From IMG/VR virus record IMGVR_UViG_3300030382_003857: 64,000 nt of DNA, one strand, 5' to 3'. Made by a program: the position numbers and the translations under genes. The notes beneath the pieces were generated by a model. The model was not told where the DNA came from, searched no databases, and saw nothing but the letters and a program-made list of their open reading frames with translations. The DNA is from an uncultured virus (IMG/VR IMGVR_UViG_3300030382_003857) (Duplodnaviria > Heunggongvirae > Uroviricota > Caudoviricetes). Shown piece after piece: positions 17,307 through 53,140 of the stretch; position 1 is the first letter of the stretch; the number at the start of each line of letters is the position of its first letter.

Positions 17307-17912
17307 TTAAGTCAAGTTATTTCTAAATCCATAATTAAAAGACATTGTTATTCGAGGTTTATCAGTCAAGTTAGGTTCCACATAATGAGTAGTATCAGAC
17401 CCAAACAAAAGATACACACCATTTTGAGGAGTATATATCCATTGACCAGAATTTAATGCATTGTGCTTAGTGACTTCATTTTTATAGAGCAGAGCACCTA
17501 AAACATTTGGATTTTCAAAAATAGTTCTTCCCTGTTGCTCTGTTGCTTGAATATAGTAAACACCTGAAAATATAATTCTATGATTGTCAAATAACATATG
17601 ATTATGAGGTTTATTCATATGTCCTTTACCATTAACATTAAACCAATAAGCCAAAAGATAAGGAGATTTTTTGAGATGAAGGAGACGCTGCAGGGACTTA
17701 GCATCTTCATCAATAGATTCAAACACAGGCTTCACAGACGCAACGGGTTTGTAATGTGTCTCACTTTGCCATCCCCCAATAGCAGAAATAATTTCTTGAA
17801 TCCCTTGTTTTTTTAAATTTAACGCATATCTAGCTGCGTTTTTTGATTCAACCTTATTAGTAACTAAATAACTTTTAAATATTTCATGAATCGTACTACT
17901 ATGCACTTTCAT
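17307..17912 (-). CDS. 2OG-Fe(II) oxygenase-like (HxH type)
   Basis: PHNH, SGVYY, THYVEPN, RITMSFN. Confidence 0.8.
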   Translation of the reverse strand: MKVHSSTIHEIFKSYLVTNKVESKNAARYALNLKKQGIQEIISAIGGWQSETHYKPVASVKPVFESIDEDAKSLQRLLHLKKSPYLLAYWFNVNGKGHMNKPHNHMLFDNHRIIFSGVYYIQATEQQGRTIFENPNVLGALLYKNEVTKHNALNSGQWIYTPQNGVYLLFGSDTTHYVEPNLTDKPRITMSFNYGFRNNLT

Positions 17913-18202
17913 ATCTTTTTAATTTTAGATATCACACAATTTGGAATAAGGGTAGCGTTTCCAATCTCATCAATCTCCCCAGACTTTTCATTCTTTAACG
18001 CATAGTCCCCAAAAATTCTAGTTAAGCCCTTAGACTGAGAAACTAAATGACCTTTAGTCACACAGGGAGCCAGCTTAGCATTCTTAAAAGCCTCAATGGA
18101 TTGCCAACCTGAATCAGACGTAATATCCACCCAATGTACTTCAACCATAGGATACTTATCTATTTCTCTTTTAGCCCGTTTATTTACAAATTTCTTTTTC
18201 AT
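17909..18202 (-). CDS. Hypothetical phage protein
   Basis: VEVHWVDITSDSGW; ATGA coupling. Confidence 0.7.
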   Translation of the reverse strand: MKKKFVNKRAKREIDKYPMVEVHWVDITSDSGWQSIEAFKNAKLAPCVTKGHLVSQSKGLTRIFGDYALKNEKSGEIDEIGNATLIPNCVISKIKKI

Positions 18203-18840
18203 TTAATCTCGTAACACATAAAACCATCCGACCATTGACCTTTAACCCACACATCAAACGCGATGGACAGTCTATCATCAGCAGCCAAATTTTGTTGAAC
18301 AGAATGTTTAAGAAAGGCAGGAAAGAAAATCAATGTTCCCTCTTTTTGTGGAAAGTTTATTGTTGGAGAATTACTTTCATTTGCCTTATCAAATAATATA
18401 CCAATTGTAGATTTAAAAACTCTTTCATTTTCGAATGGATCATGCAAAATTAAATTACCACATTGTGGAGGAGTCTGTAGATAATACACACCACTATAAA
18501 CTGCATTAGAATGATAATGCTTGGGTGCACCACTCTTTATGGGATGTCTGTTAACCCAACTACGCTGAATAAAAAATTTAAAGTTATTTTTAACACCAAG
18601 CTGATTGTACATTACGTCCTCTAAGTTTTTCATAATGACAGCTTTAAGATCTTTTAAACCTGAGATGCCCAAAATATTTCTATTGAGAGTAGTCAACCCA
18701 GTTTCATCTAGATTTCTAATTTCATTATTAACTGGATAGGGCTCATATTTTAATGTCTTAATAAGCTTTAGCCATTTAGGTTTAACCGGTATTTCATTAA
18801 CCGAAAGAGAAATTCCAAAAATATTAGTGTGTCTTAACAT
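18199..18840 (-). CDS. 2OG-Fe(II) oxygenase-like (HxH type)
   Basis: KHYH, SGVYY, FPAFLKHSV, RLSIAF. Confidence 0.8.
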   Translation of the reverse strand: MLRHTNIFGISLSVNEIPVKPKWLKLIKTLKYEPYPVNNEIRNLDETGLTTLNRNILGISGLKDLKAVIMKNLEDVMYNQLGVKNNFKFFIQRSWVNRHPIKSGAPKHYHSNAVYSGVYYLQTPPQCGNLILHDPFENERVFKSTIGILFDKANESNSPTINFPQKEGTLIFFPAFLKHSVQQNLAADDRLSIAFDVWVKGQWSDGFMCYEIK

Positions 18841-19012
18841 TTACATCCCCCACTGAAGTAACAAGATTAGAGTTATGTACCTCATTTAAGACCTGAATGA
18901 AAGAACCAAAATCACCCTGTTTTAGTAATTTTTTCTGGCGTGATGTTAATGATGTCTTTGCTTTCCCCGATTTTTTGTTCGAGCTCTGACAATCTTTTTT
19001 CCAACGCTTCAC
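18824..19012 (-). CDS. Possible small protein overlapping the 3' end of terS
   Basis: Fills the gap between terS and the oxygenase; SD-like GGAGG upstream. Confidence 0.45.
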   Translation of the reverse strand: MKRWKKDCQSSNKKSGKAKTSLTSRQKKLLKQGDFGSFIQVLNEVHNSNLVTSVGDVNVKTH

Positions 19013-19427
19013 GAGACATGCCCTCCAAACCTATGTGTTTAACTTCTCTTTTATCGACATAGAAACCAGCCATTTGGCCTTTTCTAAATTCAGCATTAAT
19101 TGCTGCAGTGTACTGTCCTTTATTAGCTGCAGACTTTTGAAGTTCTTCAAAGTTTTTATAACTCCTAAGTTTATCTTTCTCGTAAATTGCTAACTCTTGT
19201 TGTAATCGTTTCTCCATATATCTACATACATGTGGATTCAAAGCAGGATTCGTTAACCTACTAGCCGTCTCCATCGGGCCTTCTTTTTTCTTTGAGACAT
19301 ATCCAGCTTGTCGAGCTGCTTCAGTCTTAGAGATCTTACCCCAATTCTGTACCAAAATATCAACAAATGATTTTTGTTTTTGAGTAAGCTCCGTTATTGT
19401 TTTTAATTCATTTCTTTTTTTAGGCAT
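18912..19427 (-). CDS. terS: Terminase small subunit
   Basis: LTQKQKSFV...TEAARQAGY...ASRL HTH; AAINAE..RGQMAGFY. Confidence 0.8.
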   Translation of the reverse strand: MPKKRNELKTITELTQKQKSFVDILVQNWGKISKTEAARQAGYVSKKKEGPMETASRLTNPALNPHVCRYMEKRLQQELAIYEKDKLRSYKNFEELQKSAANKGQYTAAINAEFRKGQMAGFYVDKREVKHIGLEGMSREALEKRLSELEQKIGESKDIINITPEKITKTG

Positions 19428-20028
19428 ATTTCATTCTTAACCAAAACTGTATACTAAACCTTTGTTTAATAAAAGGTTGCTTCTTTCCTGTTAATCGTTT
19501 AACTGCATGCGAAATATAGCCTGGAAATAAAACCAAACTATTATGTTGCATCGGTATTTCTATTGTACCACTATCTTGGATTAGTAGACTACCCCCCTTT
19601 AAAGGGCAACGCTCAGAGATATTAAGATTAAAGGTAAACATCTCATTATCCTTATGCCAATTGTAATATTGCTCAGCATTATAAGCAATTATGTGGATTT
19701 TATGATCAAATCTTCTCTCATGTAAGAAGTTAAATACGTCATTATCATCATTACGTATAAAAGCAAAAAGTCCCTCATGCATAAACCATTCCCTTAATCC
19801 CTCGATAGCAGGTAAATCAATATGGGTATTATGATCCCAGCTTTTCCAGAAATCAGTTGCTCGACAGTATTGTTGTTTTCCCTTCATATTTCCATCTTTG
19901 TGACGCCAATGGGGTATACCAAACTGGTGCTGGTTGGCTTCTAGTTCGTCATAAAGTTGATTACAATATTCAGCTGGTAGAAAATCCGAACACCCTATAA
20001 CATTCGGAGAAATCGATTTGTATTCCAT
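19420..20028 (-). CDS. 2OG-Fe(II) oxygenase (HxD type)
   Basis: WHKD, GG, FPGYISHAV, RFSI. Confidence 0.8.
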   Translation of the reverse strand: MEYKSISPNVIGCSDFLPAEYCNQLYDELEANQHQFGIPHWRHKDGNMKGKQQYCRATDFWKSWDHNTHIDLPAIEGLREWFMHEGLFAFIRNDDNDVFNFLHERRFDHKIHIIAYNAEQYYNWHKDNEMFTFNLNISERCPLKGGSLLIQDSGTIEIPMQHNSLVLFPGYISHAVKRLTGKKQPFIKQRFSIQFWLRMKYA

Positions 20029-20029
20029 A

Positions 20030-20235
20030 TTCCTACATACCCTACTTCTAGAAAAAAGAAAAATATTTTTTCAATTTCTAAGTGAAAAGTTCCGGATTTT
20101 TCCTGAAAAATAGGAATTCTTCCTAGTTTTTTCCTAGTTATTTTCGTCTAGAAGTGTTGATATTACTGTGTTTTTCCTACTTTCCTAGAAATATTGTCCT
20201 TACAAAAAAAGATTTTATTTTTTATTTTTCTAAGT
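20030..20235. repeat. AT-rich segment with TTCCTA iterations
   Basis: TTCCTA at 20030, 20120, 20131, 20174, 20182; inverted TAGGAA at 20111; A/T tracts. Confidence 0.55.
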
Positions 20236-20269
20236 GACAGGTATTGGGAAACAGGATATAACTGAAATA

Positions 20270-20347
20270 GGATTCAGGCGACGGAGTTATTCGGATAAGT
20301 CCTGATAGGCTGGTGGATGGGAGACTTGAAGCCAGCCACCCTTTTTC
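20270..20347 (+). ncRNA. Candidate two-hairpin small RNA
   Basis: TATAAC -10 at 20257; stems tcag..gac/gtcctga and ggctgg/ccagcc; T run after. Confidence 0.35.
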
Positions 20348-20474
20348 TAACTATCAACCTGCCCACGGCAGGCCTCCCGTAGTTAGTTTTATTCATAGTT
20401 AGATCCGGAAGTTTAGGCTGCCGGGTCTAACTTGATTAGAATGATTCTAAACTAGCGCCGTGTTCCGTGATTCT

Positions 20475-20621
20475 TTACTCTGATGTATTATGTTCGTAAG
20501 TTTTATCTTCAGCTGCACCCTTATCACAGTCACAACTATTACAAGTACAAATATCTAAATACTCGTCTATATGTTCTGTTCCGCTGCAGTGACAGTCGTG
20601 GTTACAACTCTTACATTTCAT
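20475..20621 (-). CDS. 48-aa Cys/His-rich metallothionein-like protein
   Basis: Manual translation MKCKSCNHDCHCSGTEHIDEYLDICTCNSCDCDKGAAEDKTYEHNTSE. Confidence 0.7.
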   Translation of the reverse strand: MKCKSCNHDCHCSGTEHIDEYLDICTCNSCDCDKGAAEDKTYEHNTSE

Positions 20622-20655
20622 GATGGTTCTATTTTAACGCTTCACGAACCACGGA

Positions 20656-21126
20656 TCAACTGTAAGCCTGACAAATAATTGAAGTGACTAGAGCCGTGGT
20701 CGAATTAAAGACAGCATCTCGGGCCAATAACATCGCTTTCCTTAAATTAATGCGTTTTTCCTTATCTTTTTCATCTTTTAATACCAAATATTTCAAGTAA
20801 TATTCAATCCATTTTACCTGTCTCTGGGTAAAAGTAATCTTCTTTTCTTGAACTGCTTTTAAATACTGAGTTTTAACCTGCTCCGGATCCCAACCAGCCC
20901 ACCAACAGATATTAATAAAATCTTCTTCTTCTTTCGTAATCCAGTTATGAGCTTCCATTTTTATAATCGAAGACTTTCGATCTGAATGAATAATTCTGGC
21001 ATCTTCAAAAGCATTAATTAAAACATAACGCCATAATTTTTCTTCAGGACTCTGATGAGTTTCATTTACTAAATCTTCAGCAATATTAATGCCCATAAGT
21101 TCTAATAAGCTCGGTGAGTAGCTCAC
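20656..21126 (-). CDS. Hypothetical phage protein, possible regulator
   Basis: PEEKLWRYVLINAFEDA...FINICWWAG. Confidence 0.65.
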   Translation of the reverse strand: MSYSPSLLELMGINIAEDLVNETHQSPEEKLWRYVLINAFEDARIIHSDRKSSIIKMEAHNWITKEEEDFINICWWAGWDPEQVKTQYLKAVQEKKITFTQRQVKWIEYYLKYLVLKDEKDKEKRINLRKAMLLARDAVFNSTTALVTSIICQAYS

Positions 21127-21325
21127 GGTAGGTATCTTTCACTCCTCTTTTTACATTTAATTGAGAAGCGAACTCATAGGTTTGATGGATATCATCAATA
21201 AAAGATGTTATCTCTGCGCCTGACCATTTTTGTCGTCTAGGTTTCGTAATGTCTAAAATATCATCGTAATAAAAATCTGCTGCCATAGCAGATCTATTAT
21301 AACTTGGCTGTAACATTTTTTCCAC
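21086..21325 (-). CDS. Hypothetical protein, start possibly at MAADF
   Basis: In coupled gene array. Confidence 0.6.
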   Translation of the reverse strand: MEKMLQPSYNRSAMAADFYYDDILDITKPRRQKWSGAEITSFIDDIHQTYEFASQLNVKRGVKDTYRELLTELIRTYGH

Positions 21326-21572
21326 CCTGCACGACTTTTAATTGGACTACATTGTCGGTTGTTTGAATTGGTTTTCCAGAGTGAAGATCGTAGATGGCTT
21401 CTTTATCTTGAATAAATTTTGAACTTAAAGCTTCGTATCCATATTTAATACCATTCATTAATGCAAAACAGGTACTGCTTACTAAATCATATTCGCGTTT
21501 AGTTAATTTCTGAGCACAGACTCGAAGAGTCTTGGTTAACTCAGTGATACCGTCCTTTGGTTTCTTTTCCAT
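21297..21572 (-). CDS. Hypothetical protein
   Basis: 91 aa; NVVQLKVVQGGK tail. Confidence 0.65.
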   Translation of the reverse strand: MEKKPKDGITELTKTLRVCAQKLTKREYDLVSSTCFALMNGIKYGYEALSSKFIQDKEAIYDLHSGKPIQTTDNVVQLKVVQGGKNVTAKL

Positions 21573-21774
21573 TAATTAAATCCTCACACATTCTTAAAAT
21601 TGCCCAAAAGTTTTGATGCCTGATTCGTGATTGATGTCGATTAATGAGTCCTGTTCCTGCACAGAAGATACAAGTTCCGGTATTACCTAGAGATCCTCTA
21701 ACGTATCCATTTCCTGTACAGCTTGTGCAACTGTTTCTAATTTCATCCATAATATTTTGAAGACGCCTTGTCAA
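21541..21774 (-). CDS. DnaJ-type zinc-finger protein
   Basis: CTSCTGNG and CIFCAGTG (two CxxCxGxG). Confidence 0.75.
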   Translation of the reverse strand: MTRRLQNIMDEIRNSCTSCTGNGYVRGSLGNTGTCIFCAGTGLINRHQSRIRHQNFWAILRMCEDLINGKETKGRYH

Positions 21775-21775
21775 G

Positions 21776-21988
21776 TCAAGAACGTTTTTTAGCTTTCTCC
21801 CATGATAACTTTCCTGGACGTCTATATTTTTTCCATTTACAGTTTATCACAGTTAGACCGGTCTCTGCTAGAATACGAATCTGCCAACCATCCGGAGTAG
21901 CTTCTTCCCAATGCTTAATATAGGTAGGAATTTCCATAAAGGAATCACCTTTTTCATTGTATTCTCTAGGTTTTTTTCTATCACACAT
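21776..21988 (-). CDS. Hypothetical protein
   Basis: 70 aa in coupled array. Confidence 0.55.
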   Translation of the reverse strand: MCDRKKPREYNEKGDSFMEIPTYIKHWEEATPDGWQIRILAETGLTVINCKWKKYRRPGKLSWEKAKKRS

Positions 21989-22547
21989 AATTAATATTTA
22001 TATTTATCCTCCTGGGTGTTGTTGTACAATTGGTTGAATTGTGATGGGTCAGACCATCAAAAATTAACATTCTATTTGCGACGGAGCTGATCTCCACTGG
22101 TTCTCTATCCTTAGGGTAGAGTTGAGTGCACCCATCATTCGCATTCATATAAAATAAAGCTGTTTGGTGTGGAAATTTAAAATCAGTATGTTTGGGATGA
22201 AAATGCAAGAGATCTCCCTGGACATAACAATTTACTTTCATTCTAAGTAGCTGTTTATATTCAATATTTTTCAGAACAATATTAGAGATAAAATCGAAGT
22301 AAGGACTCCTAAACTCTTCTTCACGTCCTCCATTTTTAAGTTTGGCTGCTGAAAAAAGCAGATGAGTAAATTGAAAATGATGGGGAGCTGCGTCCTGCTC
22401 AGTTAACTTATGAGTAAAAGTCCAAGGAAAAGGTTGCTCAAAAATAACATCAAAAAGTTTATCGAAGTCATCTTGTTCAAGATAGTGATCTTTAATTTTA
22501 TAGTCTAATCTATCCCAGGGGGCTGTATTAAAAGTCATTTGATTCAA
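21981..22547 (-). CDS. 2OG-Fe(II) oxygenase-like (HxD type)
   Basis: KHTD, NRMLIFDG..HH, RININ. Confidence 0.75.
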   Translation of the reverse strand: MNQMTFNTAPWDRLDYKIKDHYLEQDDFDKLFDVIFEQPFPWTFTHKLTEQDAAPHHFQFTHLLFSAAKLKNGGREEEFRSPYFDFISNIVLKNIEYKQLLRMKVNCYVQGDLLHFHPKHTDFKFPHQTALFYMNANDGCTQLYPKDREPVEISSVANRMLIFDGLTHHNSTNCTTTPRRINININYV

Positions 22548-23127
22548 ACCTATCTCCTGCCAGGCCTTTAAACATTATATTAAATGCAATACTAATTCTT
22601 AAGTCCTCCTTTGTATAAGGCGGAACATAATGTTGCAACCAAGAAGGAAAAAAAATTATTCTATTTTCTTTTGCAGGAAAAGACCAAGCTGAAGAATTTT
22701 CTTTATTAAAATTTTTTACTTTAGGTCTAATCACCCCTGCTTGAGCTCTTGAATCAACAAAGGTTATAGAAGAATCATTACTTTGCACATAATAAACACC
22801 ACTTAAAAAATTATTAGCATGTGTGTGAGGGGTATGGGTCTCATTTTTTCTTAAAACATTAGCCCACATACCTGTTATTTTAAAGCTGCTATAGATTAAA
22901 TCAGAATTTTTAAAAATAATATTAGAGGATTCATTAACTTTATTTACTAAAGTTGAGTAGGGTTTTTCTTTTTGTAAAGAATCTTTAGACTGCCAATAAG
23001 GTTTTTTACTATCATATGATTTAAGAACACTTTTCTTTAGAGCTTTGTTTTCGGATTCTTTTAAAACATTATCACTTAACCATATGTTAGTTGGAAATAA
23101 TGCGTGATAGTTTAATTGTGTGGGCAT
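22528..23127 (-). CDS. 2OG-Fe(II) oxygenase-like (HxH type)
   Basis: LFPT, PHTH, SGVYY, FPSWLQHYV, RISIAFN. Confidence 0.85.
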   Translation of the reverse strand: MPTQLNYHALFPTNIWLSDNVLKESENKALKKSVLKSYDSKKPYWQSKDSLQKEKPYSTLVNKVNESSNIIFKNSDLIYSSFKITGMWANVLRKNETHTPHTHANNFLSGVYYVQSNDSSITFVDSRAQAGVIRPKVKNFNKENSSAWSFPAKENRIIFFPSWLQHYVPPYTKEDLRISIAFNIMFKGLAGDRFESNDF

Positions 23128-33483: not shown

Positions 33484-34026
33484 TTACTCCTTCGTTGTTA
33501 TTTTAGTTTTATTTGCAACATAAACACCAAAAAGATCTGCCGGAACATTTTTACCATTTGTAATTTGTTCTCTTACAAATGCCTTTAATGTCATAGGCTC
33601 AACCTTTTCAGCTTGTTTAACATTATGACCTTTTTGACGTAAATCTTCAGCAACCGATTTTGCCTGGTTGTCTTGATTACGTCCGAAAGTAACCATAATA
33701 TTATTTTTAATTAAATCCCCATGCCCATTACCGCGAAGCCATGTAAATGCTTCTTCAGTTTTGGAAACAGGAATCTTCGCTGCGTAGTAAGGTTTTACTT
33801 CAACCGCGGAACCATCCGCGAGTTTGATAAAACTTATACCAGCCTGTTGCATTAAGTTTGGAATTGTTTGCTCAGAAAGTGTTGTTTCGGTTGCTTTCAA
33901 CTTTTTTAATTGTTCGTCAATCGCTTCCATTTGTTTCTGAGTTTCCAATAACTTATTGCAAGATTTTGCGATGTCGGAGGACATCGCAGTATCGACCTGT
34001 ATGACCGATTCTGCTTCTAAGTCCAT
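33484..34026 (-). CDS. Replication-module hypothetical protein
   Basis: AFTWLR..GHGDLIK, VEPMTLKAFVRE. Confidence 0.7.
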   Translation of the reverse strand: MDLEAESVIQVDTAMSSDIAKSCNKLLETQKQMEAIDEQLKKLKATETTLSEQTIPNLMQQAGISFIKLADGSAVEVKPYYAAKIPVSKTEEAFTWLRGNGHGDLIKNNIMVTFGRNQDNQAKSVAEDLRQKGHNVKQAEKVEPMTLKAFVREQITNGKNVPADLFGVYVANKTKITTKE

Positions 34027-34097
34027 AAGAACCTCCTGGGTTGGTCTTATAATTTATCTACTTGTTAATGTAAAGAAAAAAGTATAAAAAGAAAGTA

Positions 34098-35531
34098 ATG
34101 AATTTTTCGGAAATTTATGAAACCGATCCATTTAAGCACCAAGAGACCGCTTTAGAAGAAGGGTGGGATAAAACTAATTTTGCCTATTTTATGGAAATGG
34201 GAACAGGCAAAACAAAAGTTGCTATAGATAATGTAAGCTCTTTATATCACCAAAAGAAGATAAAACAAGCAGTAGTTGTAGCTCCTAATTCAGTATATTT
34301 GAATTGGTTTGATGAGATTCGGCTGCATTCGAAGTATTCCGCTGATATTTTTGTCTGGAAAAAAAGTAAAATAAAATTATTTAATAAATACCAATATAAT
34401 AATTTATTGTACGTTTTAATGAATGTAGAAGCTTTATCACATGCTAGTGGCGTTAAATTCTTGGGTGAATGGTTAAAAAAGCATGGAGATACTACGATGT
34501 TTATTCTTGACGAATCAACAACAATAAAAAACAAATCAGCACTACGAACAAAAGCAATTTGTAAATTAGGTAAATGGGCAAAATACCGCCGATTACTAAC
34601 AGGATCCCCAATAACAAAATCTCCATTAGACCTTTATACACAATGTGAGTTTTTAAGTAAAGATTTACTAGGTTTTAGTTCTTTTTATACTTATAGAAAT
34701 CATTATGCAGTTATGCACCCCATTCAAGTGCAAAATAGAACCATTCAAATACCTGTTAAATATATTAATTTAGAAGAGTTAGAGCATAAAATCAAAAGTT
34801 TTTCTTATCGGGTAACAAAAGATGTCTGTCTTGATTTACCAGAAAAACTATATATTGAACGAAAAATAGAATTAACTGGGGAACAAAAAAGAGTATACGA
34901 AAAATTAAGAAGAGAAGCTCGAGTTATTATTAATGATGATAAAGTTTCATTTGATAATAAACTAACGGAAATTATTAAATTACAGCAAGTGGTAAGTGGT
35001 TTTGTTAAAACAGATAAAGGAGAAATTACTGTTTTTGAAAACGATGCTAAATTAAAAGATCTCACACAGTTATTGGAGGAGGTAGAAGGTAAGTGTATAA
35101 TTTGGGCGACGTATGTACATAATATTAAGGTTATAAAGCAGATGATCGGGGAGAAATATGGAAAAGAGACCGTGGCTACCTTATACGGAGAAGACGATAT
35201 CGATAGTCGTAAACGCACTGTGGACGATTTTCAAAATAGTGATAGATTGCGTTTCCTCGTTGGTAATCCTACTGTTGGTGGTTACGGTCTCACCCTTACT
35301 GCTGCTAGGACTGTTATATATTACAATAATTCGTACAACATGGAGGTTCGTTATCAAAGTGAAGACCGTTGTCATAGAATTGGTCAAGCAAGAAACGTAA
35401 CTTATATAGATCTTTTAGGTTTGCATACTATTGATGAATTAATTAAAGCTTCTCTTCATCGTAAAATTTCTATCAGCCATCAAATTATGGGGGATAAACT
35501 TAAAAAGTATTTTAATGATCCGATGCCTTAA
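34098..35531 (+). CDS. SF2 (SNF2-like) helicase
   Basis: MGTGKT, DEST, TGSP, GLTLT, QSEDRCHRIGQ. Confidence 0.9.
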   Translation: MNFSEIYETDPFKHQETALEEGWDKTNFAYFMEMGTGKTKVAIDNVSSLYHQKKIKQAVVVAPNSVYLNWFDEIRLHSKYSADIFVWKKSKIKLFNKYQYNNLLYVLMNVEALSHASGVKFLGEWLKKHGDTTMFILDESTTIKNKSALRTKAICKLGKWAKYRRLLTGSPITKSPLDLYTQCEFLSKDLLGFSSFYTYRNHYAVMHPIQVQNRTIQIPVKYINLEELEHKIKSFSYRVTKDVCLDLPEKLYIERKIELTGEQKRVYEKLRREARVIINDDKVSFDNKLTEIIKLQQVVSGFVKTDKGEITVFENDAKLKDLTQLLEEVEGKCIIWATYVHNIKVIKQMIGEKYGKETVATLYGEDDIDSRKRTVDDFQNSDRLRFLVGNPTVGGYGLTLTAARTVIYYNNSYNMEVRYQSEDRCHRIGQARNVTYIDLLGLHTIDELIKASLHRKISISHQIMGDKLKKYFNDPMP

Positions 35532-36529
35532 TGAATGTTTTGGATTTATTTAGTGGAATAGGTGGATTTTCTGTTGGACTAGAACGTGCTGGGTTTAAAA
35601 CCATTGCTTTTTGTGAAATAGATAAATATTGTCAGGAAGTATTAAAACAGCATTGGAAGGGCGTTAAAATCTATAAGGATGTCAAAGAAGTTACCAAACA
35701 AAAACTTAAAGAAGACGGAATTGAGTCGCCAGCAATTATTACGGGTGGCGTTCCCTGTCAACCCTTTAGTGTCGCAGGAAGAAAAAAAGGAACTGCAGAC
35801 TCCAGATATCTCTGGCCAGAAATGTTTAGAATTATTAAAGATTTCAAAACTCCGTGGGTCATTATTGAGAATGTCAGAGGCCTTATTAGCATCCAAGACG
35901 GCATGGTCTTCGAACGTGTGTGCACTGACTTGGAAAGCCAAAACTACCAAGTACAAACGTTTAATATTCCAGCTGCAGGCGTCGGTGCTCCCCATAAAAG
36001 AGAAAGAGTCTGGGTGGTGGGCTACTCCGAACACAATGGATTACTTGCCCCCAAGATCAAAAGAAGGAACTATGAGGATGAGACAGACACACAAAAAGGG
36101 CAGAAGCAGACCTTCAAACCTACGAGAACAAGTAGACCCAACTACAATGAGATTATGGAGAACTCCAGACGCAGTAGCAGGAGGCAGCAATCTACCTGGA
36201 ATAAAAAAAGCCCTGGATCAGGGACATCTCAAGAGACCGAGTGGTCAACCGATTCAAATAAGATTACACGATCAAATAAGAGAGCCAAGACTATGGCCGA
36301 CACCGAGAGCATCCAATCCAGGAAGTCGCCCGAATCAAAAAGGTGGGAAGATACTTCAAGAAGAAGCGAAAAAAAGTCAGCCCACAATTGGTGGAACGTT
36401 GAACCCAGTGTGGGTAGAGTGGTTAATGGGGTTCAAGGAAGGACACACCGACTTAAAGGATTGGGAAATGCTATTATCCCGCAAATCGCGGAAGAAATTG
36501 GCAATGCCATCATCAAAGCAGAAGGATAA
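35531..36529 (+). CDS. C5-cytosine DNA methyltransferase, catalytic (alpha) frame
   Basis: FSGIGG (I), PCQPFS (IV), ENV (VI), PHKRER (VIII), LGNAI (X). Confidence 0.9.
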   Translation: MNVLDLFSGIGGFSVGLERAGFKTIAFCEIDKYCQEVLKQHWKGVKIYKDVKEVTKQKLKEDGIESPAIITGGVPCQPFSVAGRKKGTADSRYLWPEMFRIIKDFKTPWVIIENVRGLISIQDGMVFERVCTDLESQNYQVQTFNIPAAGVGAPHKRERVWVVGYSEHNGLLAPKIKRRNYEDETDTQKGQKQTFKPTRTSRPNYNEIMENSRRSSRRQQSTWNKKSPGSGTSQETEWSTDSNKITRSNKRAKTMADTESIQSRKSPESKRWEDTSRRSEKKSAHNWWNVEPSVGRVVNGVQGRTHRLKGLGNAIIPQIAEEIGNAIIKAEG

Positions 36530-36539
36530 AAGTGAGTAA
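35679..36539 (+). CDS. Overlapping +1-frame methyltransferase partner (beta) with target-recognition-like repeats and motif IX
   Basis: 286 stop-free codons; three WxTP repeats; LNPVWVEWLMGF. Confidence 0.7.
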   Translation: MSKKLPNKNLKKTELSRQQLLRVAFPVNPLVSQEEKKELQTPDISGQKCLELLKISKLRGSLLRMSEALLASKTAWSSNVCALTWKAKTTKYKRLIFQLQASVLPIKEKESGWWATPNTMDYLPPRSKEGTMRMRQTHKKGRSRPSNLREQVDPTTMRLWRTPDAVAGGSNLPGIKKALDQGHLKRPSGQPIQIRLHDQIREPRLWPTPRASNPGSRPNQKGGKILQEEAKKSQPTIGGTLNPVWVEWLMGFKEGHTDLKDWEMLLSRKSRKKLAMPSSKQKDKSE

Positions 36540-37041
36540 AGGTCATTTAAATCTTTTAGCTGCCCATAATACTTACGGAAAAAGAAAGACATTGAGAATG
36601 GAGTATATTAGAACTCCAAAAGAAATATGGAAAAATTTATCTCAAGAATTTAATTTTACCGTTGATGCGTGTGCTTCTGATAAAAGTCATTTAGTTGATA
36701 AGTATTGGACGAAAGAAAATTCAGCCTTAACTAAAAATTGGGATGGAGAGATTGTTTATTGTCATCCCATGTATGATATGAAGATTCCTAAATTTGTTAA
36801 AAAGGCTTTTGATCATAAATGTCTTACAGTTTTTTTACTACCAGCTTCTACTAATAGTGTATACTTTCATACTTATTTTTGGGATGAGCATACTCACAGA
36901 TCTAGAAAGAATGTACAAATTCGATTTTTACCCGTAATCGATCGACAGCTTGGGTATTTAATGGCAACTGACGATGGTAAGCTACCTAAGAGAGGATACT
37001 TAAGACCTTTAATGATTGTAAGGGTAGATACTAGATATTAG
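36532..37041 (+). CDS. Phage Dam-family N6-adenine methyltransferase-like protein
   Basis: RTPKE, FTVDACAS, W.GE.VYCHPMY (NPPY variant), FLLPAST. Confidence 0.7.
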   Translation: MSKGHLNLLAAHNTYGKRKTLRMEYIRTPKEIWKNLSQEFNFTVDACASDKSHLVDKYWTKENSALTKNWDGEIVYCHPMYDMKIPKFVKKAFDHKCLTVFLLPASTNSVYFHTYFWDEHTHRSRKNVQIRFLPVIDRQLGYLMATDDGKLPKRGYLRPLMIVRVDTRY

Positions 37042-46722: not shown

Positions 46723-47647
46723 AAATTGCTCCTTTTAAAAAGTTAGTCCAATATGTTCCTATTTGTTTCCAATCATAAAATTTACGATAGTAATCTTGTT
46801 GAAATTTAATTTCATTTCCTACTTTTAAATTAAAAATATGGTTTTTACAATCTAAGATTGTATTGGCAGTAAGCTGAGTTAACGCCTTTTTATCCTTATT
46901 ATAAGGCATATAGACTGGAAACTCTGCACAGGTTTCAGGTAAAGCGCCGAGATCCGTGGTTATTACAATCAAACCTGCAGCTAATGATTCCAGAGCTGAG
47001 ATACAAAAAGTTTCTTCCCATGTCGAAGGGTGACAATTCACATGGTATTTAGGAAGCTCTTGTAATAATGCTTTGTGATCACAATAACCTTTATAATTAA
47101 CATTAGGTAAAGCCTTAGCTTTTTTATAAAGATCTAAATAATGATTATCATTAGATTCTTTAAAAGCATCTCCATAAATTTGGGTACTAGAAAAAACATC
47201 TAAAACAATATCCTTTTCTTTTTTTAATATTTCCATAGCTCCTAATAAAACATCTAAACCACGCCAGGGGGTAGATAGATAAACTATTTTTAAAGGAGGA
47301 TTAATATCTAGTTCTTCTTTAATAACTAATTCATCATAATCAATTCCATTTTTAATTATTAAGCATCGATCATGTGGAATATCAAATGCATATCTATATT
47401 TTTCATAAGACCAATGTGAATTAAAAACATAGTAATCATATTTTTTATGATTACTTTTCTTTTGAAACCAAGGATTAACATTAGGTTGATCATATGAATT
47501 CTTTAACCATAAAATATTTGGTTTCATAGGATGCAAAGGTTCTTTTTCTGGAATAGAAGTTGTAATTTGAACCTTATCTAAAAATTTATAAGGAACATAT
47601 TTGCGTAAATAATCTAACTGTATTTCTGTGCCACCGTATGCTTGCAT
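46691..47647 (-). CDS. GT-B (GT4-like) glycosyltransferase
   Basis: GGTE, RGLDVLL, ETFCISALE, GALPE. Confidence 0.85.
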   Translation of the reverse strand: MQAYGGTEIQLDYLRKYVPYKFLDKVQITTSIPEKEPLHPMKPNILWLKNSYDQPNVNPWFQKKSNHKKYDYYVFNSHWSYEKYRYAFDIPHDRCLIIKNGIDYDELVIKEELDINPPLKIVYLSTPWRGLDVLLGAMEILKKEKDIVLDVFSSTQIYGDAFKESNDNHYLDLYKKAKALPNVNYKGYCDHKALLQELPKYHVNCHPSTWEETFCISALESLAAGLIVITTDLGALPETCAEFPVYMPYNKDKKALTQLTANTILDCKNHIFNLKVGNEIKFQQDYYRKFYDWKQIGTYWTNFLKGAIYEYETKRQKS

Positions 47648-48288
47648 TAATTATTCCATAATTTTATATTACCAGCGATAGTTATACGATAATTATTGCT
47701 AGTATAAAAGGGGTAAACACAATGAAGCATTGAGGCAGGAAAAATGTAGATAAAACCTTCATAACTTTTATCAACAGGAATATCTTGTGTTTTGATGCCC
47801 CCAAAAGAATCAAGATAAAAAAATTGAAGATGACTTACTAAATTACTATTCGCTTGTTTACCCGGGCCTTTCTCTAATTCTTCTTTCAAATCATATGGAA
47901 TTTTCATAAAAATAACAAAAGAAAATAATCCTGAATGATCATGAGCCGGATTAAACTCAGTCTTTTTTTGAAAATTAACCCATAAAGAGTGAAGATAAAG
48001 TCGAGCATCTAATCTAAGAAAAGTGCTTCTTTTTAAATATTTTACAAAGACAGGAGAGTTTGCAATTTGACTTGTTAAAAATTGTTCAAGTTCCGGATAC
48101 ACTGGATCTAAATGATATTCATTAACAATATTACCTGCTAAAGTTTTTTGTGCACCTTTTAACTTTTTTTTATTTTTAATTAATGCTTTAAGATGTGTAA
48201 AGATTGTATCCGGAAGTTTTGTATCATGGATTCCAATATGCCTACAATCAATCATTCTTTGTTTTACCAAATACTTGCAGAGATGCAA
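47647..48288 (-). CDS. 2OG-Fe(II) oxygenase-like (HxH type)
   Basis: WVNFQ...NPAHDH, FPASMLHCVYPF, RITIAGN. Confidence 0.8.
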   Translation of the reverse strand: MHLCKYLVKQRMIDCRHIGIHDTKLPDTIFTHLKALIKNKKKLKGAQKTLAGNIVNEYHLDPVYPELEQFLTSQIANSPVFVKYLKRSTFLRLDARLYLHSLWVNFQKKTEFNPAHDHSGLFSFVIFMKIPYDLKEELEKGPGKQANSNLVSHLQFFYLDSFGGIKTQDIPVDKSYEGFIYIFPASMLHCVYPFYTSNNYRITIAGNIKLWNN

Positions 48289-51033: not shown

Positions 51034-51600
51034 TCACACTAACTTTGGCCCTGTTAACCATAGTGTAAGAGTATTTCTAGTACCTTTAGTAACGGGTGTT
51101 ACTTTATGACATAGGAAGCTAGAAAACATAACCATATTACCAGGAGTTAATTCCTTTATTAGTGTTTTTCCTCCTCCCATATTAATACATAAGTCGCCTC
51201 CTTGATAGTCCTTCTCTGATAAATTTAAAAGGCACGTTAATTTGATATCGGACACTGCGTTTTTTTCAGGTATCCCATCTAGATGCCATCCATACTCAGA
51301 CTTTTTACCAGCTGAATAAGTATTATAATTTAAATATTCTCCGTCTAATAAAGGATATAGATGATACCCCCAATTTAAAAAATTAGTATAGAGAGATTTA
51401 TTAAAAAATTCTTTGAGAATAACTTCTATATGTCGATAAGGAATCATTCTAACGGTAGAAGTTTTAAGCACATTAGAAGCGGGATTATCTTTTGCCTTAA
51501 TTAAATGTTTATTAATATGTTTATTAATATCTTTAATTTGCTGTGGTGTATAAACTTTCCACCAATAATAGGCATGTCTTTTAACTGCTTTAGGATCCAT
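51034..51600 (-). CDS. 2OG-Fe(II) oxygenase (PKHD/prolyl-hydroxylase-like)
   Basis: WHLD, KLT, YQGGDL, HKVTPVTKGTR. Confidence 0.88.
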   Translation of the reverse strand: MDPKAVKRHAYYWWKVYTPQQIKDINKHINKHLIKAKDNPASNVLKTSTVRMIPYRHIEVILKEFFNKSLYTNFLNWGYHLYPLLDGEYLNYNTYSAGKKSEYGWHLDGIPEKNAVSDIKLTCLLNLSEKDYQGGDLCINMGGGKTLIKELTPGNMVMFSSFLCHKVTPVTKGTRNTLTLWLTGPKLV

Positions 51601-53140
51601 GTATCTTTTTTAAATATTCATATAAGGTTGGGTATTGTAAAACAGCTTTATTCCATAGTTCTTTACGTTTGTTCATTCGTTCTATAGGTTTTTTCCATGA
51701 ATCATATAGTAGCTGTGGATCACTGACTAAATTCTCATGCATTAAACTGACTAGGTCTGTAGGCCCCCAATTAAAACCAGCTGAAATACAGGTTAAACCT
51801 GAAGTAGGAGGATGAGTAAATTCCCATTCTCTATCAAATACAAATCGAGTAAAACCTGAATGAAGATAAGCTTTTAAATCTAATAATTCTTTAGACCATA
51901 CTCGATTAAAATTTGCTTTCCAATAAGGAGTATCTTGTCGATGAGATAAGGCATAATGCATAGCAACAAATTGAGAAAAAGAATGAAAGAAAGCTTTACA
52001 AGTAGCATTATAATTATCTTTATCCCATTGGGATATTTCTCCTCTATCTAAATTACGACATAGTCGCCATAAAAATTCATGAACGGATAATAATCCATTA
52101 CTTTCTAAAGGTTCAATAAACCCTGCTGATAATCCAATGGCACATACATTTTTTACAAAGAGTCTACGATGTAAGCCAACTCTCATTTTAATATTTTTAA
52201 ATTCTAAATCTTCTCTTCCTAAATGGTTTTTAAATTCTTTTAAGGCATCTTCATCAGAAACAAATTTATCTGAATAAACATACCCAGTTCCAATACGGCT
52301 CCATAAAGGAATATTCCAGACCCATCCATTTTCAATAGCAGTACAATTGGTATAAGGAACTAATTGTTTTTTCTTATCCGTGTAGGGAACACGAGTTGCC
52401 CACGCTGAATTATTAGGTAACATGTCTGTGTAACTATCAAATGGTTCTTTTAATGCTCCTCCTAAAAGGAGAGATCTAAAACCAGTACAATCAATATATA
52501 AATCTGCTTTATGCTTATGATTTAATGATACGATTCCTTCTTTATTTTGTTCTATGGTTGTGATTTCTTCTTTAATATGCTTAACCCCTTTTGGAATAGC
52601 ATAATGATCTCTCAGCCATAATCCAAATTTAGTGGCATCAAAATGAAAAGCACTATCACGATGATATTTAAAAGGAACAGAGCTTATTCTATTGGTAATT
52701 CTATTATTATTAACAAAGGCCATTTGAGGAAATATACAGTCAGCAAAATCATTAAGTGGAGTATCAGGTTGACTAATCTTTTTAAACCACCAATCATTCG
52801 TTTGAGATACATTTTCATCAATAAATGGTCTACCAAAAGGAAAATGAAAGAATTGATTTTTTTTATAGAAATCAGTAAAGCGGATACTTAATTTAATACT
52901 CGCATCCGTATGAGGAATAAAATCATTATCTTGAATTCCGAGCATGCCTGTCCATCCTCTAATTTGACCTAAGGTACTTTCTCCTACTCCTACTGTAGGA
53001 ATCTTGGGGGATTCAATTAAAGTAATATCATAATGAGGAAAAAAACGAATTAAGGTTGCTGCGGACATCCAGCCCGCTGATCCCCCTCCCACAATCATAA
53101 TCTTTTTTTTAATAGACCCAGCCGGCATGTACACTTTCAT
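51590..53140 (-). CDS. Flavin-dependent (tryptophan-halogenase-family) halogenase A
   Basis: GGGSAG, GVGEST, ASIKL (catalytic Lys position), WVWNIP, FIEPLES. Confidence 0.9.
   Translation of the reverse strand: MKVYMPAGSIKKKIMIVGGGSAGWMSAATLIRFFPHYDITLIESPKIPTVGVGESTLGQIRGWTGMLGIQDNDFIPHTDASIKLSIRFTDFYKKNQFFHFPFGRPFIDENVSQTNDWWFKKISQPDTPLNDFADCIFPQMAFVNNNRITNRISSVPFKYHRDSAFHFDATKFGLWLRDHYAIPKGVKHIKEEITTIEQNKEGIVSLNHKHKADLYIDCTGFRSLLLGGALKEPFDSYTDMLPNNSAWATRVPYTDKKKQLVPYTNCTAIENGWVWNIPLWSRIGTGYVYSDKFVSDEDALKEFKNHLGREDLEFKNIKMRVGLHRRLFVKNVCAIGLSAGFIEPLESNGLLSVHEFLWRLCRNLDRGEISQWDKDNYNATCKAFFHSFSQFVAMHYALSHRQDTPYWKANFNRVWSKELLDLKAYLHSGFTRFVFDREWEFTHPPTSGLTCISAGFNWGPTDLVSLMHENLVSDPQLLYDSWKKPIERMNKRKELWNKAVLQYPTLYEYLKKIHGS

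What the first reader, a model, noticed from the sequence alone, without database searches (positions are those of the whole stretch)
35531..36539. Dual-coded C5-methyltransferase: about 850 nt read in two frames with complementary motifs
Seen: frame A (35531-36529) has motifs I, IV, VI, VIII and X, but between VIII and X it is low-complexity S/R/K/T sequence with no motif IX. The +1 frame (35679-36539) stays open for 286 codons in an AT-rich genome. It carries three repeats WxTP...L(R/H/Q)(E/D)(Q/E) (WATP, WRTP, WPTP) and LNPVWVEWLMGF, which fits motif IX. Established: M.EcoHK31I needs a beta polypeptide from an alternative frame that supplies motif IX. Inference: a heterodimeric or frameshift-assembled enzyme whose repeated target-recognition modules can be added or lost in-frame in both frames, possibly giving multi-specific methylation.
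Basis: partly seen in the sequence, partly recalled or inferred. Interest (0 to 1): 0.75.

Follow-up and report, generated by a model that had tools for sequence, protein, structure and literature searches.

The report
Two-frame two-subunit phage cytosine methylase
One 1-kb gene of this marine phage is kept open in two overlapping reading frames that most likely give the catalytic chain and the DNA-recognition chain of one DNA cytosine methyltransferase, a layout first shown for a single E. coli enzyme but shared here by a very large phage and bacterial family.

Summary
Frame A (35531-36529, 332 aa) is a C5 cytosine methyltransferase with motifs I-VIII and X. Between VIII and X it has a 120-residue polar stretch predicted to be disordered. 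The +1 frame B (35679-36539, 286 aa) overlaps it for 851 nt. It encodes a conserved protein: a docking domain, three WxTP cassettes and an LNPVWVEWLMGF box placed where motif IX belongs.

Both frames stay open in 80 of 80 viral and 78 of 78 metagenomic relatives. A profile of frame B finds 41,673 protein clusters. Substitution counts show that constraint passes from A, to A plus B, to B alone in the cassettes (A 1.13, B 0.30), and back to A. B has a conserved ATG. A strong Shine-Dalgarno core precedes it in 53 of 81 loci, though not in this window. Co-folding scores 0.89 against 0.01 for the best control.

My reading is an alpha/beta heterodimer of the M.EcoHK31I kind, with the recognition part on beta. 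Assembly by frameshifting is disfavoured, multi-specificity is untested, and no experiment bears on this gene.

This scan noted the same layout in at least eight other genomes. Novelty: new variant of a known kind.

The parts
35531..36529 (+). alpha gene (frame A, 332 aa): C5-MTase large domain with motifs I-VIII and X
   Evidence: ORF. PF00145 7e-53. TIGR00675 2e-45. The profile aligns to M.HhaI residues 13-174 only. AF2 gives residues 1-170 folded and helices 305-331.
35679..36539 (+). beta gene (frame B, +1, 286 aa), nested in alpha; its stop lies 10 nt beyond alpha's stop
   Evidence: ORF. phrog_1008 8.6e-20. 41,673 representative clusters match its profile. No Pfam, NCBIfam or PDB sequence match.
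35679..35681 (+). probable beta start codon (ATG inside alpha's Asp-Val codons)
   Evidence: It is the first in-frame ATG, 11 codons after the upstream stop. The ATG is kept in all 22 clade sequences shown, in two of them one codon upstream. Database beta-type proteins start at the equivalent profile position 24-30. The window has no usable SD core: AAGG lies at 0 nt.
35679..35807 (+). beta leader, residues 1-43, overlapping alpha between motifs II and IV
   Evidence: Stop-free but weakly constrained: omega_B 0.61 [0.43-0.82], omega_A 0.17. pLDDT below 50 for residues 8-42.
35808..36017 (+). beta docking (N) domain, residues 44-113, overprinted on alpha motifs IV-VIII; both frames are selected
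   Evidence: omega_A 0.13 and omega_B 0.30 [0.19-0.40]. The rate of A-synonymous/B-changing substitutions is 0.127, against 0.364 synonymous in the alpha-only part. Beta 57-101 contacts alpha 140-156 in the complex model. Site 35972 is T in 69 of 70 genes; it is the middle base of beta Leu99.
36018..36155 (+). beta cassette 1 (WATP..., residues 114-159, type T1)
   Evidence: type T1 has 63 members, usually placed first after the docking domain.
36156..36293 (+). beta cassette 2 (WRTP..., residues 160-205, type T3)
   Evidence: type T3 has 38 members, found in at least 12 different neighbour contexts.
36294..36398 (+). beta cassette 3 (WPTP..., residues 206-240, type T19)
   Evidence: type T19 has 2 members. 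The architecture T1-T3-T19 is seen once among 101 segmented betas.
36399..36455 (+). beta motif-IX-like box (LNPVWVEWLMGFKEGHTDL, residues 241-259)
   Evidence: It is the most constrained part of beta: omega_B 0.08 [0.05-0.13]. It is found in the +1 frame in 63 of 80 viral loci (strict pattern) and 72 of 78 metagenome loci. Beta 238-265 packs on alpha 306-331 in the complex model. The Pfam HMM does not recognise it.
36026..36385 (+). alpha linker (frame A residues 166-285): the frame-A reading of beta's cassettes
   Evidence: omega_A 1.13 [0.96-1.36]. 91 of 120 residues are polar or charged. pLDDT is 22-38 with no secondary structure. It is nonetheless stop-free in 73 of 74 complete viral genes.
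36461..36484 (+). alpha motif X (LGNAIIPQ, residues 311-318), overlapped by beta's tail
   Evidence: Invariant L311 G312 N313 P317 Q318. omega_A 0.24 and omega_B 0.54.

Best explanation
The locus encodes two polypeptides from one stretch of DNA, and together they form one DNA cytosine-5 methyltransferase.

Alpha (frame A) is the complete large, AdoMet-binding and catalytic domain. It holds motifs I-VIII, then a disordered, selectively neutral linker, then the motif X helix.

Beta is started independently at the internal ATG at 35679 in the +1 frame. It is the small, DNA-recognition domain. It has an unconstrained leader, then a helix-plus-hairpin docking domain that pairs with the alpha strand before motif VIII, then three roughly 35-46-residue WxTP cassettes that presumably read the target sequence, then the motif IX box that packs on alpha's motif X helix.

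The linker of alpha exists only because ribosomes in frame A must read through beta's cassettes to reach motif X. Selection there acts on beta and on the absence of frame-A stops.

The phage has no restriction partner nearby. The enzyme would therefore act as an orphan methylase that protects phage DNA, next to a Dam-like N6 methylase.

Shown by computation: both frames are conserved, the selection pattern holds, the start signals exist in relatives, and the model predicts an interface.

Inferred: translation of beta, heterodimer formation, activity, the role of the cassettes, and the biological role.
For: (1) Both frames are open in every relative examined: 80 of 80 viral loci (+1 frame 124-457 codons against 24-74 in the +2 frame) and 78 of 78 metagenome loci with motif I (+1 frame at least 79% of gene length, median 88%; +2 median 13%).

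(2) Starting from beta instead, 65 of 80 bacterial or archaeal loci from many phyla carry motifs IV, VI, VIII and X in the -1 frame across beta's motif IX.

(3) Synonymous shuffles of 69 genes expect 5.1 frame-B stops and 7.1 frame-A stops. Only 0.2% and 0.5% of shuffles are stop-free.

(4) Selection was measured on 44 disjoint pairs. Cassettes: omega_A 1.13 [0.96-1.36], omega_B 0.30 [0.24-0.37]. Motif IX: omega_B 0.08. Docking domain: omega_A 0.13 and omega_B 0.30. Motif X: omega_A 0.24. Per-position entropy gives the same switch of constraint.

(5) Population variants in 4 marine DNA runs show no indels. In the middle region, 4 of 6 SNPs are silent in B and change A: P to L, R to G, W to R, V to I.

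(6) Independent initiation is indicated. AGGAG or AGGAGG lies within 20 nt upstream of beta's first ATG in 53 of 81 viral loci and 28 of 78 metagenome loci. An ATG is kept in all 22 clade sequences shown. Database beta proteins begin at that position. Beta runs far past alpha's stop in L031, L040, L066, L067, L070 and L079.

(7) Complex model: score 0.89, best of 3 controls 0.01. That mark was reached by 116 of 157 solved complexes and 2 of 215 mismatched pairs. The runs agree in at least 64% of contacts and the partner's pLDDT is at least 58. My own alignments were used, so the counts hold only roughly.

(8) Alpha alone folds as a catalytic domain plus a disordered stretch at 172-313.

(9) Experimental precedent: M.EcoHK31I needs an alpha and a nested alternative-frame beta (PMC2836561, PMC3404938; passages read).
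Against: There is no experimental evidence for this gene: no proteomics, ribosome profiling or methylation data.

In the window and its clade, beta's ATG has no Shine-Dalgarno core at usable spacing. 26 of 56 ORF starts of this phage lack one too.

The motif IX assignment rests on pattern, position and the complex model. Pfam finds nothing in beta even at E up to 10, and a PDB profile search finds 0 hits at E up to 1.

Beta alone models poorly (mean pLDDT 59, pTM 0.25), and its fold search gave nothing (best E 0.44).

The complex pass may come partly from the model's memory of single-chain C5 methyltransferase structures.

The four-fold-site test for beta's constraint over the N-terminal overlap was not significant (mean entropy 1.45 against 1.68-1.74, p = 0.12).

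The omega estimates are simple counts without multiple-hit correction. The window itself is in none of the 44 pairs, because it has no relative between 80% nucleotide identity and identical copies.

Exceptions exist. Alpha is interrupted in L043. L122 and L148 are frame-swapped copies, and L159 carries motif X in beta's frame.
Confidence: 0.8

Rival explanations
1. Frameshift-assembled single chain. Ribosomes start in frame A, shift +1 after motif VIII to read the cassettes and motif IX, then shift back -1 to read motif X. The product would be an ordinary single-chain methyltransferase.
For: The order of motifs across frames (I-VIII in A, IX in B, X in A) is that of a single-chain enzyme. In many loci frame B stops right after the motif IX box, just before motif X in A. 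Rare database proteins are A-B chimeras: P0237, P0210, P0300, P0340 and P0369.
Against: Frame B is kept stop-free for about 110 codons upstream of the needed shift point: 5.1 stops are expected and 0 are observed in 69 of 69 genes. That stretch is under purifying selection (omega_B 0.30).

Beta has a conserved ATG with an SD core in 53 of 81 loci.

Beta continues hundreds of codons beyond alpha's stop in six loci.

Frame A would not need to stay open through the cassettes, yet it does.

No known frameshift RNA element is present.

The chimeric proteins switch frames at scattered points, as indel errors or mutations would.

I did not run a systematic search for slippery sites.
Confidence: 0.06
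2. Beta is made but is not a methyltransferase subunit. It could be a separate DNA-binding regulator or inhibitor, with alpha working alone or with another partner.
For: No family library names beta's function from experiment. phrog_1008 is only labelled 'DNA methyltransferase'. Beta has no solved relative.
Against: Alpha lacks any folded segment between motifs VIII and X. It therefore has no small domain and no motif IX of its own.

The complex model places beta's conserved box on alpha's motif X helix, and beta's hairpin on the alpha strand before motif VIII.

Beta and alpha co-occur in one DNA stretch across phyla.

EcoHK31I's beta is required for activity.
Confidence: 0.06
3. Only frame A is functional. 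The open +1 frame is a by-product of alpha's composition or codon usage.
For: Gene callers and NCBI-style annotation usually record only frame A. Beta has no Pfam family.
Against: In the cassette region frame A evolves neutrally (omega 1.13) while frame B is constrained (0.30). Shuffles that keep alpha's protein and codon usage give stop-free B frames in 0.2% of trials. Start signals are present. 41,673 clusters match beta's profile.
Confidence: 0.02

Closest known systems
M.EcoHK31I (E. coli HK31, YGGCCR), the alpha/beta C5 methyltransferase of Lee, Kam and Shaw 1995, as described in PMC2836561 and PMC3404938 (passages read; the 1995 paper itself could not be opened)
   Same: Alpha carries motifs I-VIII and X. 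Beta is encoded in another reading frame inside the alpha gene and carries motif IX. In EcoHK31I both chains are needed for activity, and beta's N-terminal part is needed for association with alpha. Here the predicted interface likewise uses beta's N-domain.
   Different: The papers place the predicted target-recognition domain of EcoHK31I on alpha. Here alpha's segment between VIII and X is neutral and disordered, and the recognition cassettes are on beta.

Beta here is 286 aa, overlaps 851 nt, and ends 10 nt beyond alpha's stop, so it is not wholly inside alpha.

Sequence relatedness to EcoHK31I could not be tested because no sequence is held.
M.AquI (CYCGRG), a two-polypeptide C5 methyltransferase (PMC3404938, passage read)
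   Same: The enzyme is split in the variable region into a catalytic chain and a chain that carries motif IX.
   Different: In M.AquI the small chain carries motifs IX and X. Here motif X is on alpha. One bacterial relative, L159, does have motif X in beta's frame.
Nested 'DNA cytosine methyltransferase' gene pairs annotated in Paenibacillus larvae phages (e.g. phage Bloom MH454077, BLOOM_56 and BLOOM_57)
   Same: The family and layout are the same. tblastn with beta hits 48 such phages at 33% identity. In Bloom the 234-aa CDS lies in the +1 frame inside the 351-aa CDS.
   Different: The records give both CDSs the same product name. PMC6070908 lists two methyltransferase genes without comment on nesting (passages read). 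Their cassette content differs.
Multispecific methyltransferases of Bacillus phages (SPR, phi3T, rho11s; recalled, not checked in any call)
   Same: Several short recognition modules of about 40 residues lie in tandem between motifs VIII and IX.
   Different: Those are single chains in one frame with demonstrated multiple specificities. Here the modules are on a separate overlapping-frame chain, and their specificities are unknown.
Rz/Rz1 spanin genes of phage lambda (recalled, not checked in any call)
   Same: A gene is nested in the +1 frame of another, and the two products bind each other.
   Different: The function is unrelated, the nested gene is much shorter, and no shared enzyme is formed.

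Membership tests
C5 cytosine DNA methyltransferase (PF00145 / TIGR00675) | Motif I (AdoMet-binding FxGxG loop) | tested here: met
   LDLFSGIGGF at alpha residues 4-13, invariant in 14 of 14 aligned sequences. PF00145 7e-53.
C5 cytosine DNA methyltransferase (PF00145 / TIGR00675) | Motif IV catalytic Pro-Cys, plus motifs VI (ENV) and VIII (xRxR) | tested here: met
   P75 C76 Q77, E113 N114 V115 and H155 R157 R159 are invariant. The region aligns to M.HhaI 13-174. Motif VIII starts with His where HhaI has Gln.
C5 cytosine DNA methyltransferase (PF00145 / TIGR00675) | Motif IX and a folded small domain on the same chain | tested here: not met
   Alpha 172-313 has pLDDT below 50 and no secondary structure. 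The PDB profile alignment ends at motif VIII. The motif-IX-like box is in frame B.
C5 cytosine DNA methyltransferase (PF00145 / TIGR00675) | Motif X (GNA/S-V/I-P) | tested here: met
   L311 G312 N313 P317 Q318 are invariant.
EcoHK31I-type alpha/beta C5 methyltransferase | Beta is encoded in an alternative frame within the alpha gene | tested here: met
   35679-36539 is in the +1 frame of 35531-36529. Beta's stop lies 10 nt past alpha's.
EcoHK31I-type alpha/beta C5 methyltransferase | Beta supplies motif IX | tested here: inconclusive
   The pattern LNPVWVEWLMGF sits at the right place. It is the most constrained part of beta (omega_B 0.08) and packs on the motif X helix in the model. The Pfam HMM and PDB profile do not recognise it.
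EcoHK31I-type alpha/beta C5 methyltransferase | Both polypeptides are required for activity | not testable with these tools
   Only a co-fold is available: 0.89 against 0.01 for the best control.
EcoHK31I-type alpha/beta C5 methyltransferase | The target-recognition domain is on alpha (as the papers describe EcoHK31I) | tested here: not met
   Alpha's linker is neutral (omega_A 1.13) and disordered. The cassettes are in beta.
EcoHK31I-type alpha/beta C5 methyltransferase | Sequence homology to M.EcoHK31I alpha and beta | not testable with these tools
   No EcoHK31I sequence is held, and the 1995 paper is not readable.
AquI-type split C5 methyltransferase | The small chain carries motifs IX and X | tested here: not met
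   Motif X is in frame A. Only relative L159 has this form.
Programmed ribosomal frameshift gene | The downstream frame is needed only from the shift site, and a stimulatory element or slippery site is present | tested here: not met
   Frame B is open and selected about 110 codons upstream. It has its own ATG and SD core. No Rfam element is found. A systematic slippery-site scan was not done.
Multispecific phage C5 methyltransferase | Several target sequences are methylated by one enzyme through tandem recognition modules | not testable with these tools
   Tandem, exchangeable cassettes are present. Their specificities are unknown.

The most novel reading that the evidence does not exclude
Most 'single-gene' phage and prophage Dcm-like methylases of this large family are in fact obligate heterodimers, and their whole DNA-recognition subunit is written in the +1 frame.

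That subunit's docking domain was born by overprinting on the most conserved catalytic motifs (IV-VIII).

Its target specificity is set combinatorially by exchangeable cassettes of about 40 residues. Each cassette must stay stop-free in two frames, so one enzyme may read several sites.

The 120-residue alpha linker would be a translated but functionless shadow. The textbook placing of the EcoHK31I recognition domain on alpha would need revisiting.
Probability: 0.35. Interest if true: 0.85.

Novelty: new variant of a known kind. Interest (0 to 1): 0.62.

Why it matters
Annotation pipelines record only alpha, or give both nested ORFs the same name. The chain that most likely decides which DNA sequence is methylated is therefore missing from protein catalogues, and predictions of specificity from alpha alone would be blind.

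The papers read here treat two-chain C5 methyltransferases as rare exceptions: M.AquI and M.EcoHK31I (PMC3404938). Here the nested layout is found in every relative examined, and a profile of the nested protein matches 41,673 clusters at 50% identity.

The locus is also a clean natural case for studying long same-strand overlaps, with 851 nt under measurable dual constraint. It shows a neutral 'shadow' peptide that is still translated. It shows a structured domain apparently created by overprinting. And it shows cassette exchange that must respect two frames at once.

Naturally split methyltransferases are also used as scaffolds for targeted methylation tools (PMC2836561).

Tried and rejected
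- DNA search of GenBank phages with the locus: 1 weak 98-nt hit.
- Pfam on beta, whole and C-terminal parts, up to E 10: nothing.
- NCBIfam on beta: nothing.
- PDB profile search with beta: 0 hits at E up to 1.
- Foldseek of the low-confidence beta model against PDB: best E 0.44, meaningless.
- ESM Atlas: only unnamed, mostly viral clusters.
- Plasmid tblastn: 1 hit.
- The window's own assembly is not held. The nearest record, G001, is a 13.8-kb fragment without the locus.
- The Lee 1995 paper is not held.
- Direct DNA repeats among cassettes: none.
- Rfam: one chance-level match, E 0.2.
- Promoter and terminator scan: 7 promoter-like sites against 12 expected. One lies at 35642-35670 just before beta's ATG but is not above chance.
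- Conservation of the SNF2 and Dam neighbours: each is found in only 6 of 158 related loci, so the methylase moves on its own.
- A search for single-frame relatives among the 120 best beta hits gave only 3 proteins with PF00145. All three are irregular A/B chimeras.
- Literature searches for a family-wide description of nested-frame C5 methyltransferases found none (PMC12350097 checked). Subscription journals and REBASE are outside the library.
Full report
**What is in the sequence.** Two long ORFs share the + strand. Frame A runs 35531-36529 (332 aa). Frame B runs 35679-36539 (286 aa), is +1 relative to A, and is open from 35646. They overlap for 851 nt. The third frame's longest open stretch inside the gene is 40 codons.

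Frame A matches PF00145 end to end (7e-53) and TIGR00675 (2e-45). It shows motifs I, IV, VI, VIII and X. A profile of A and 13 homologues aligns to M.HhaI only over residues 13-174, that is motifs I-VIII.

Residues 166-285 of A are 91 of 120 S/R/K/T/E/N/Q/D. AlphaFold2 gives residues 1-170 folded, 172-313 with pLDDT below 50 and no secondary structure, and helices 305-331.

Frame B has no Pfam, NCBIfam or PDB sequence match. It does match phrog_1008, which is labelled 'DNA methyltransferase' (8.6e-20). It carries WATP, WRTP and WPTP at residues 114, 160 and 206, and LNPVWVEWLMGF at 241-252.

**Context.** The window is a tailed marine phage with terminase, portal, major head protein, DNA polymerase, primase, helicase and endolysin. 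Two metagenome contigs carry an identical copy of the gene.

The methylase sits in a three-gene + strand island: an SNF2-type helicase at 34098-35531, the alpha/beta gene, and a Dam-like gene at 36532-37041. Every other ORF of 130 aa or more that drew a PHROG match lies on the - strand. GC skew is positive only in this island.

No restriction enzyme gene is adjacent. The neighbours are not conserved among relatives: SNF2 and Dam are each found in 6 of 158 loci.

**Both frames are kept across the family.** A search with frame A found thousands of homologues. The top 120 have 45-67% identity and show the same polar middle.

In 80 of 80 IMG/VR loci the +1 frame is open for 124-457 codons, against 24-74 for the +2 frame. 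A strict motif-IX pattern is in the +1 frame in 63 of 80. The other 17 have variants of the pattern or are cut by contig ends.

In an independent metagenome sample, 78 of 80 loci had motif I. In all 78 the +1 frame is open for at least 79% of the gene (median 88%). The +2 frame has a median of 13% and a maximum of 31%. Motif IX is in the +1 frame in 72 of 78.

Of 11 viral loci where my motif X pattern failed, 7 end at the contig edge, 3 have a GNT variant, and 1 (L043) has frame A interrupted.

I also started from beta instead. A scan of species-representative genomes confirmed 430 of 600 candidates. Of the best 80 loci, 65 carry motifs IV, VI, VIII and X in the -1 frame across beta's motif IX, and 43 also match my crude motif I pattern. 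These loci come from Clostridia, Bacteroidota, Proteobacteria, Actinomycetes, Planctomycetota, Verrucomicrobiota, candidate phyla and one Methanoregula MAG.

A profile of 40 frame-B translations matches 41,673 representatives at E up to 1e-3, 26,219 at 1e-10 and 3,698 at 1e-30. Most matches begin at residue 1 of the database protein and at profile positions 24-30. Where these proteins are named at all, they are 'hypothetical protein'.

**Is the openness selected?** I shuffled synonymous codons within each of 69 genes, 200 times each.
- Over the N-terminal overlap, 5.1 frame-B stops are expected when alpha's codons are shuffled. Only 0.2% of shuffles are stop-free.
- In the middle, 7.1 frame-A stops are expected when beta's codons are shuffled. 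Only 0.5% of shuffles are stop-free.
- For the window itself the figures are 4.1 stops with 0.5% stop-free, and 6.7 stops with 0% stop-free.

Frame A's openness was partly a condition of my selection of complete genes. Frame B's openness was not.

**Which frame is constrained where.** Per-position entropy on 70 codon-aligned genes shows three phases. Third positions of A are freest before 35679 and after 36464. First positions of A, which are third positions of B, are freest from 36020 to 36460. Third-position freedom is reduced over 35783-36019.

I then counted substitutions by their joint effect in both frames. I used 44 disjoint pairs at 81-97% nucleotide identity, drawn from 133 distinct complete genes, and bootstrapped over pairs.

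| Region | omega_A | omega_B | Notes |
|---|---|---|---|
| Alpha-only N-terminus | 0.13 [0.10-0.16] | not applicable | synonymous rate 0.364 |
| Beta leader (res 1-43) | 0.17 | 0.61 [0.43-0.82] | |
| Beta docking domain (res 44-113, over alpha motifs IV-VIII) | 0.13 [0.09-0.17] | 0.30 [0.19-0.40] | A-silent/B-changing rate 0.127 [0.10-0.15] |
| Cassettes | 1.13 [0.96-1.36] | 0.30 [0.24-0.37] | |
| Motif IX box | 0.58 [0.30-1.07] | 0.08 [0.05-0.13] | |
| Motif X / beta tail | 0.24 [0.19-0.31] | 0.54 [0.37-0.78] | |

Three caveats apply. These are plain counts without multiple-hit correction. Only columns present in the window and ungapped in both members of a pair were used. The window itself is in no pair.

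A cruder test on conserved four-fold sites of alpha gave mean third-position entropy of 1.45 in the N-terminal overlap, against 1.68 and 1.74 outside it. That difference is not significant (p = 0.12). Single sites stand out, however: 35972 is T in 69 of 70 genes and is the middle base of beta Leu99.

**Natural variants of this very phage.** Contigs of four marine DNA runs laid on 35400-36700 show no insertions or deletions and 19 single-letter differences within the gene. Classified:
- In the alpha-only part, 3 of 4 are silent in A.
- In the N-terminal overlap, 2 of 2 are silent in A and change B.
- In the middle, 4 of 6 are silent in B while changing A (P to L, R to G, W to R, V to I), 1 is silent in A, and 1 changes both.
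- After 36456, 4 of 7 are silent in A.

The numbers are small, and some high-depth variants probably come from other relatives.

**How beta is started.** The first in-frame ATG of B follows the upstream stop by 5 codons or fewer in most viral loci. AGGAG or AGGAGG lies within 20 nt upstream in 53 of 81 and in 28 of 78 metagenome loci.

In the window and its clade an ATG is kept in all 22 sequences shown. In 20 of them, the window included, it is the ATG formed inside alpha's Asp-Val codons. In L168 and L170 it lies one codon upstream. No usable SD core is present in this clade. 26 of 56 ORF starts of this phage also lack one. How beta initiates here is therefore open.

Beta runs hundreds of codons beyond alpha's stop, with an extra C-terminal domain, in L031, L040, L066, L067, L070 and L079. 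That cannot be reconciled with a return to frame A.

The few A-B chimeric proteins in the databases switch frames at scattered points, as indels would.

**Do the two products fit together?** Co-folding alpha (alignment A1) with beta (A2) gave a score of 0.89 in three runs. The best of 3 controls scored 0.01. That mark was reached by 116 of 157 solved complexes and 2 of 215 mismatched pairs. The runs agree in at least 64% of contacts and the partner's pLDDT is at least 58. My own alignments were used, so the counts hold only roughly.

The confident interface joins beta 57-101 to alpha 140-156 and 163-167, with strand-to-strand contacts such as alpha 143-147 with beta 96-99. It also joins beta 238-265, the motif IX box, to alpha 286-331, which includes the motif X helix.

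Single-chain C5 methyltransferases are solved, so part of this pass may reflect likeness to them. Beta itself has no detectable sequence relative in the PDB.

Beta alone models poorly (mean pLDDT 59), and its fold search was empty.

**Cassettes.** I segmented 101 of 144 distinct betas; 43 did not fit my boundary patterns. This gave 320 cassettes with a median of 41 residues, 45 types and 66 architectures.

The window's T1-T3-T19 architecture is seen once. T1 (63 members) usually comes first. T3 (38 members) occurs in at least 12 neighbour contexts. The cassettes are not DNA-level repeats in the window.

Whether they set one composite target or several targets is unknown.

**Comparison with what is known.** PMC2836561 and PMC3404938 (passages read) describe M.EcoHK31I. 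Its beta lies entirely in another frame of alpha. Its alpha holds motifs I-VIII, X and the predicted recognition domain. Its beta holds motif IX. Both chains are needed, and beta's N-terminus is needed for association. PMC3404938 describes two-chain enzymes as exceptions.

The present gene works like that enzyme but differs in where the recognition part lies. Here it is on beta, and alpha's counterpart is a neutral, disordered shadow. Membership by sequence could not be tested.

GenBank records of Paenibacillus larvae phages annotate both nested CDSs as cytosine methyltransferases. The paper that lists them does not comment on it (PMC6070908, passages read).

Six literature searches found no description of the family-wide layout. 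The library lacks most subscription journals and REBASE.

This scan's own notes record the same layout in at least eight other genomes. I reached my reading before that look-up and tested it independently here.

**Verdict.** The mechanism rests on strong comparative and modelling evidence and on an experimental precedent, but on no experiment with this gene. Novelty: a new variant of a known kind.

Noticed in passing
window 34098-37041: A three-gene + strand island holds an SNF2-type helicase, the alpha/beta methylase and a Dam-like gene. Every other ORF of 130 aa or more with a PHROG match is on the - strand. GC skew is positive only here (+0.154 at 34001-36000). The helicase stop and alpha start share one base (TAATG at 35529-35533).
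   Followed up: partly
window 36527-36539: All three + frames are in use within 13 nt. Alpha's stop is at 36527-36529. The candidate GTG start of the Dam-like ORF is at 36532. Beta's stop is at 36537-36539.
   Followed up: no
window 36532-37041: The Dam-like ORF matches only profile positions 12-106 of 169 of PF05869 (4.5e-14). It is below the NCBIfam cut-off for TIGR01712 (40.3 against 97 bits). It may be a short or divergent N6 methylase.
   Followed up: no
window 35642-36034 (- strand): A 130-aa antisense ORF is also open across the doubly coding N-terminal overlap. It is possibly a by-product of the constraint on the + strand. I did not examine it.
   Followed up: no
window 17307-23127, 47647-48288, 51034-55776: There are at least eight 2OG-Fe(II) oxygenase-like paralogues, two tryptophan-halogenase-like genes (51590-54596) and three phrog_274 'endonuclease V' matches. 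That is an unusual load of oxygenase genes for a phage of roughly 65 kb.
   Followed up: no
L159:952-2539: This is a variant layout in a Gammaproteobacteria MAG. Alpha (motifs I-VIII, 252 aa) stops soon after VIII. Motif X follows motif IX in beta's own frame (beta 510 aa). Beta's frame is still open across about 700 nt of alpha. It looks like an AquI-type intermediate.
   Followed up: partly
L156:1104-2737: An HNH-endonuclease-like segment sits in one 500-aa frame between alpha's motif I region and beta. Motifs IV-X lie in another frame (290 aa). It resembles the earlier scan note on a nested HNH gene.
   Followed up: partly
L070:2658-4166, L079:2658-3839 (also L031, L040, L066, L067; P0121, P0122): In some relatives beta continues 130-200 residues past motif IX and past alpha's stop, into an extra conserved C-terminal domain of unknown function. 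Sometimes further WPTP cassettes follow.
   Followed up: no
L122:1769-3399, L148:1517-2574, L043:679-1468: These copies appear broken or frame-swapped. In L122 and L148 an indel inside the cassette region exchanges the two frames. In L043 alpha is interrupted after motif VIII. The cause could be decay or assembly error.
   Followed up: partly
L161 (MH454077 32447-33502): GenBank annotates both nested CDSs (BLOOM_56 of 351 aa, BLOOM_57 of 234 aa in the +1 frame) as 'DNA cytosine methyltransferase'. This holds for many Paenibacillus larvae phages.
   Followed up: yes
window 35642-35670: A promoter-like site (TTAAAA, 17 nt, TAAAAT; 9 of 12) ends 9 nt before beta's ATG. It could give a near-leaderless beta mRNA. 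Such sites are not enriched in the region (7 found, 12 expected).
   Followed up: no
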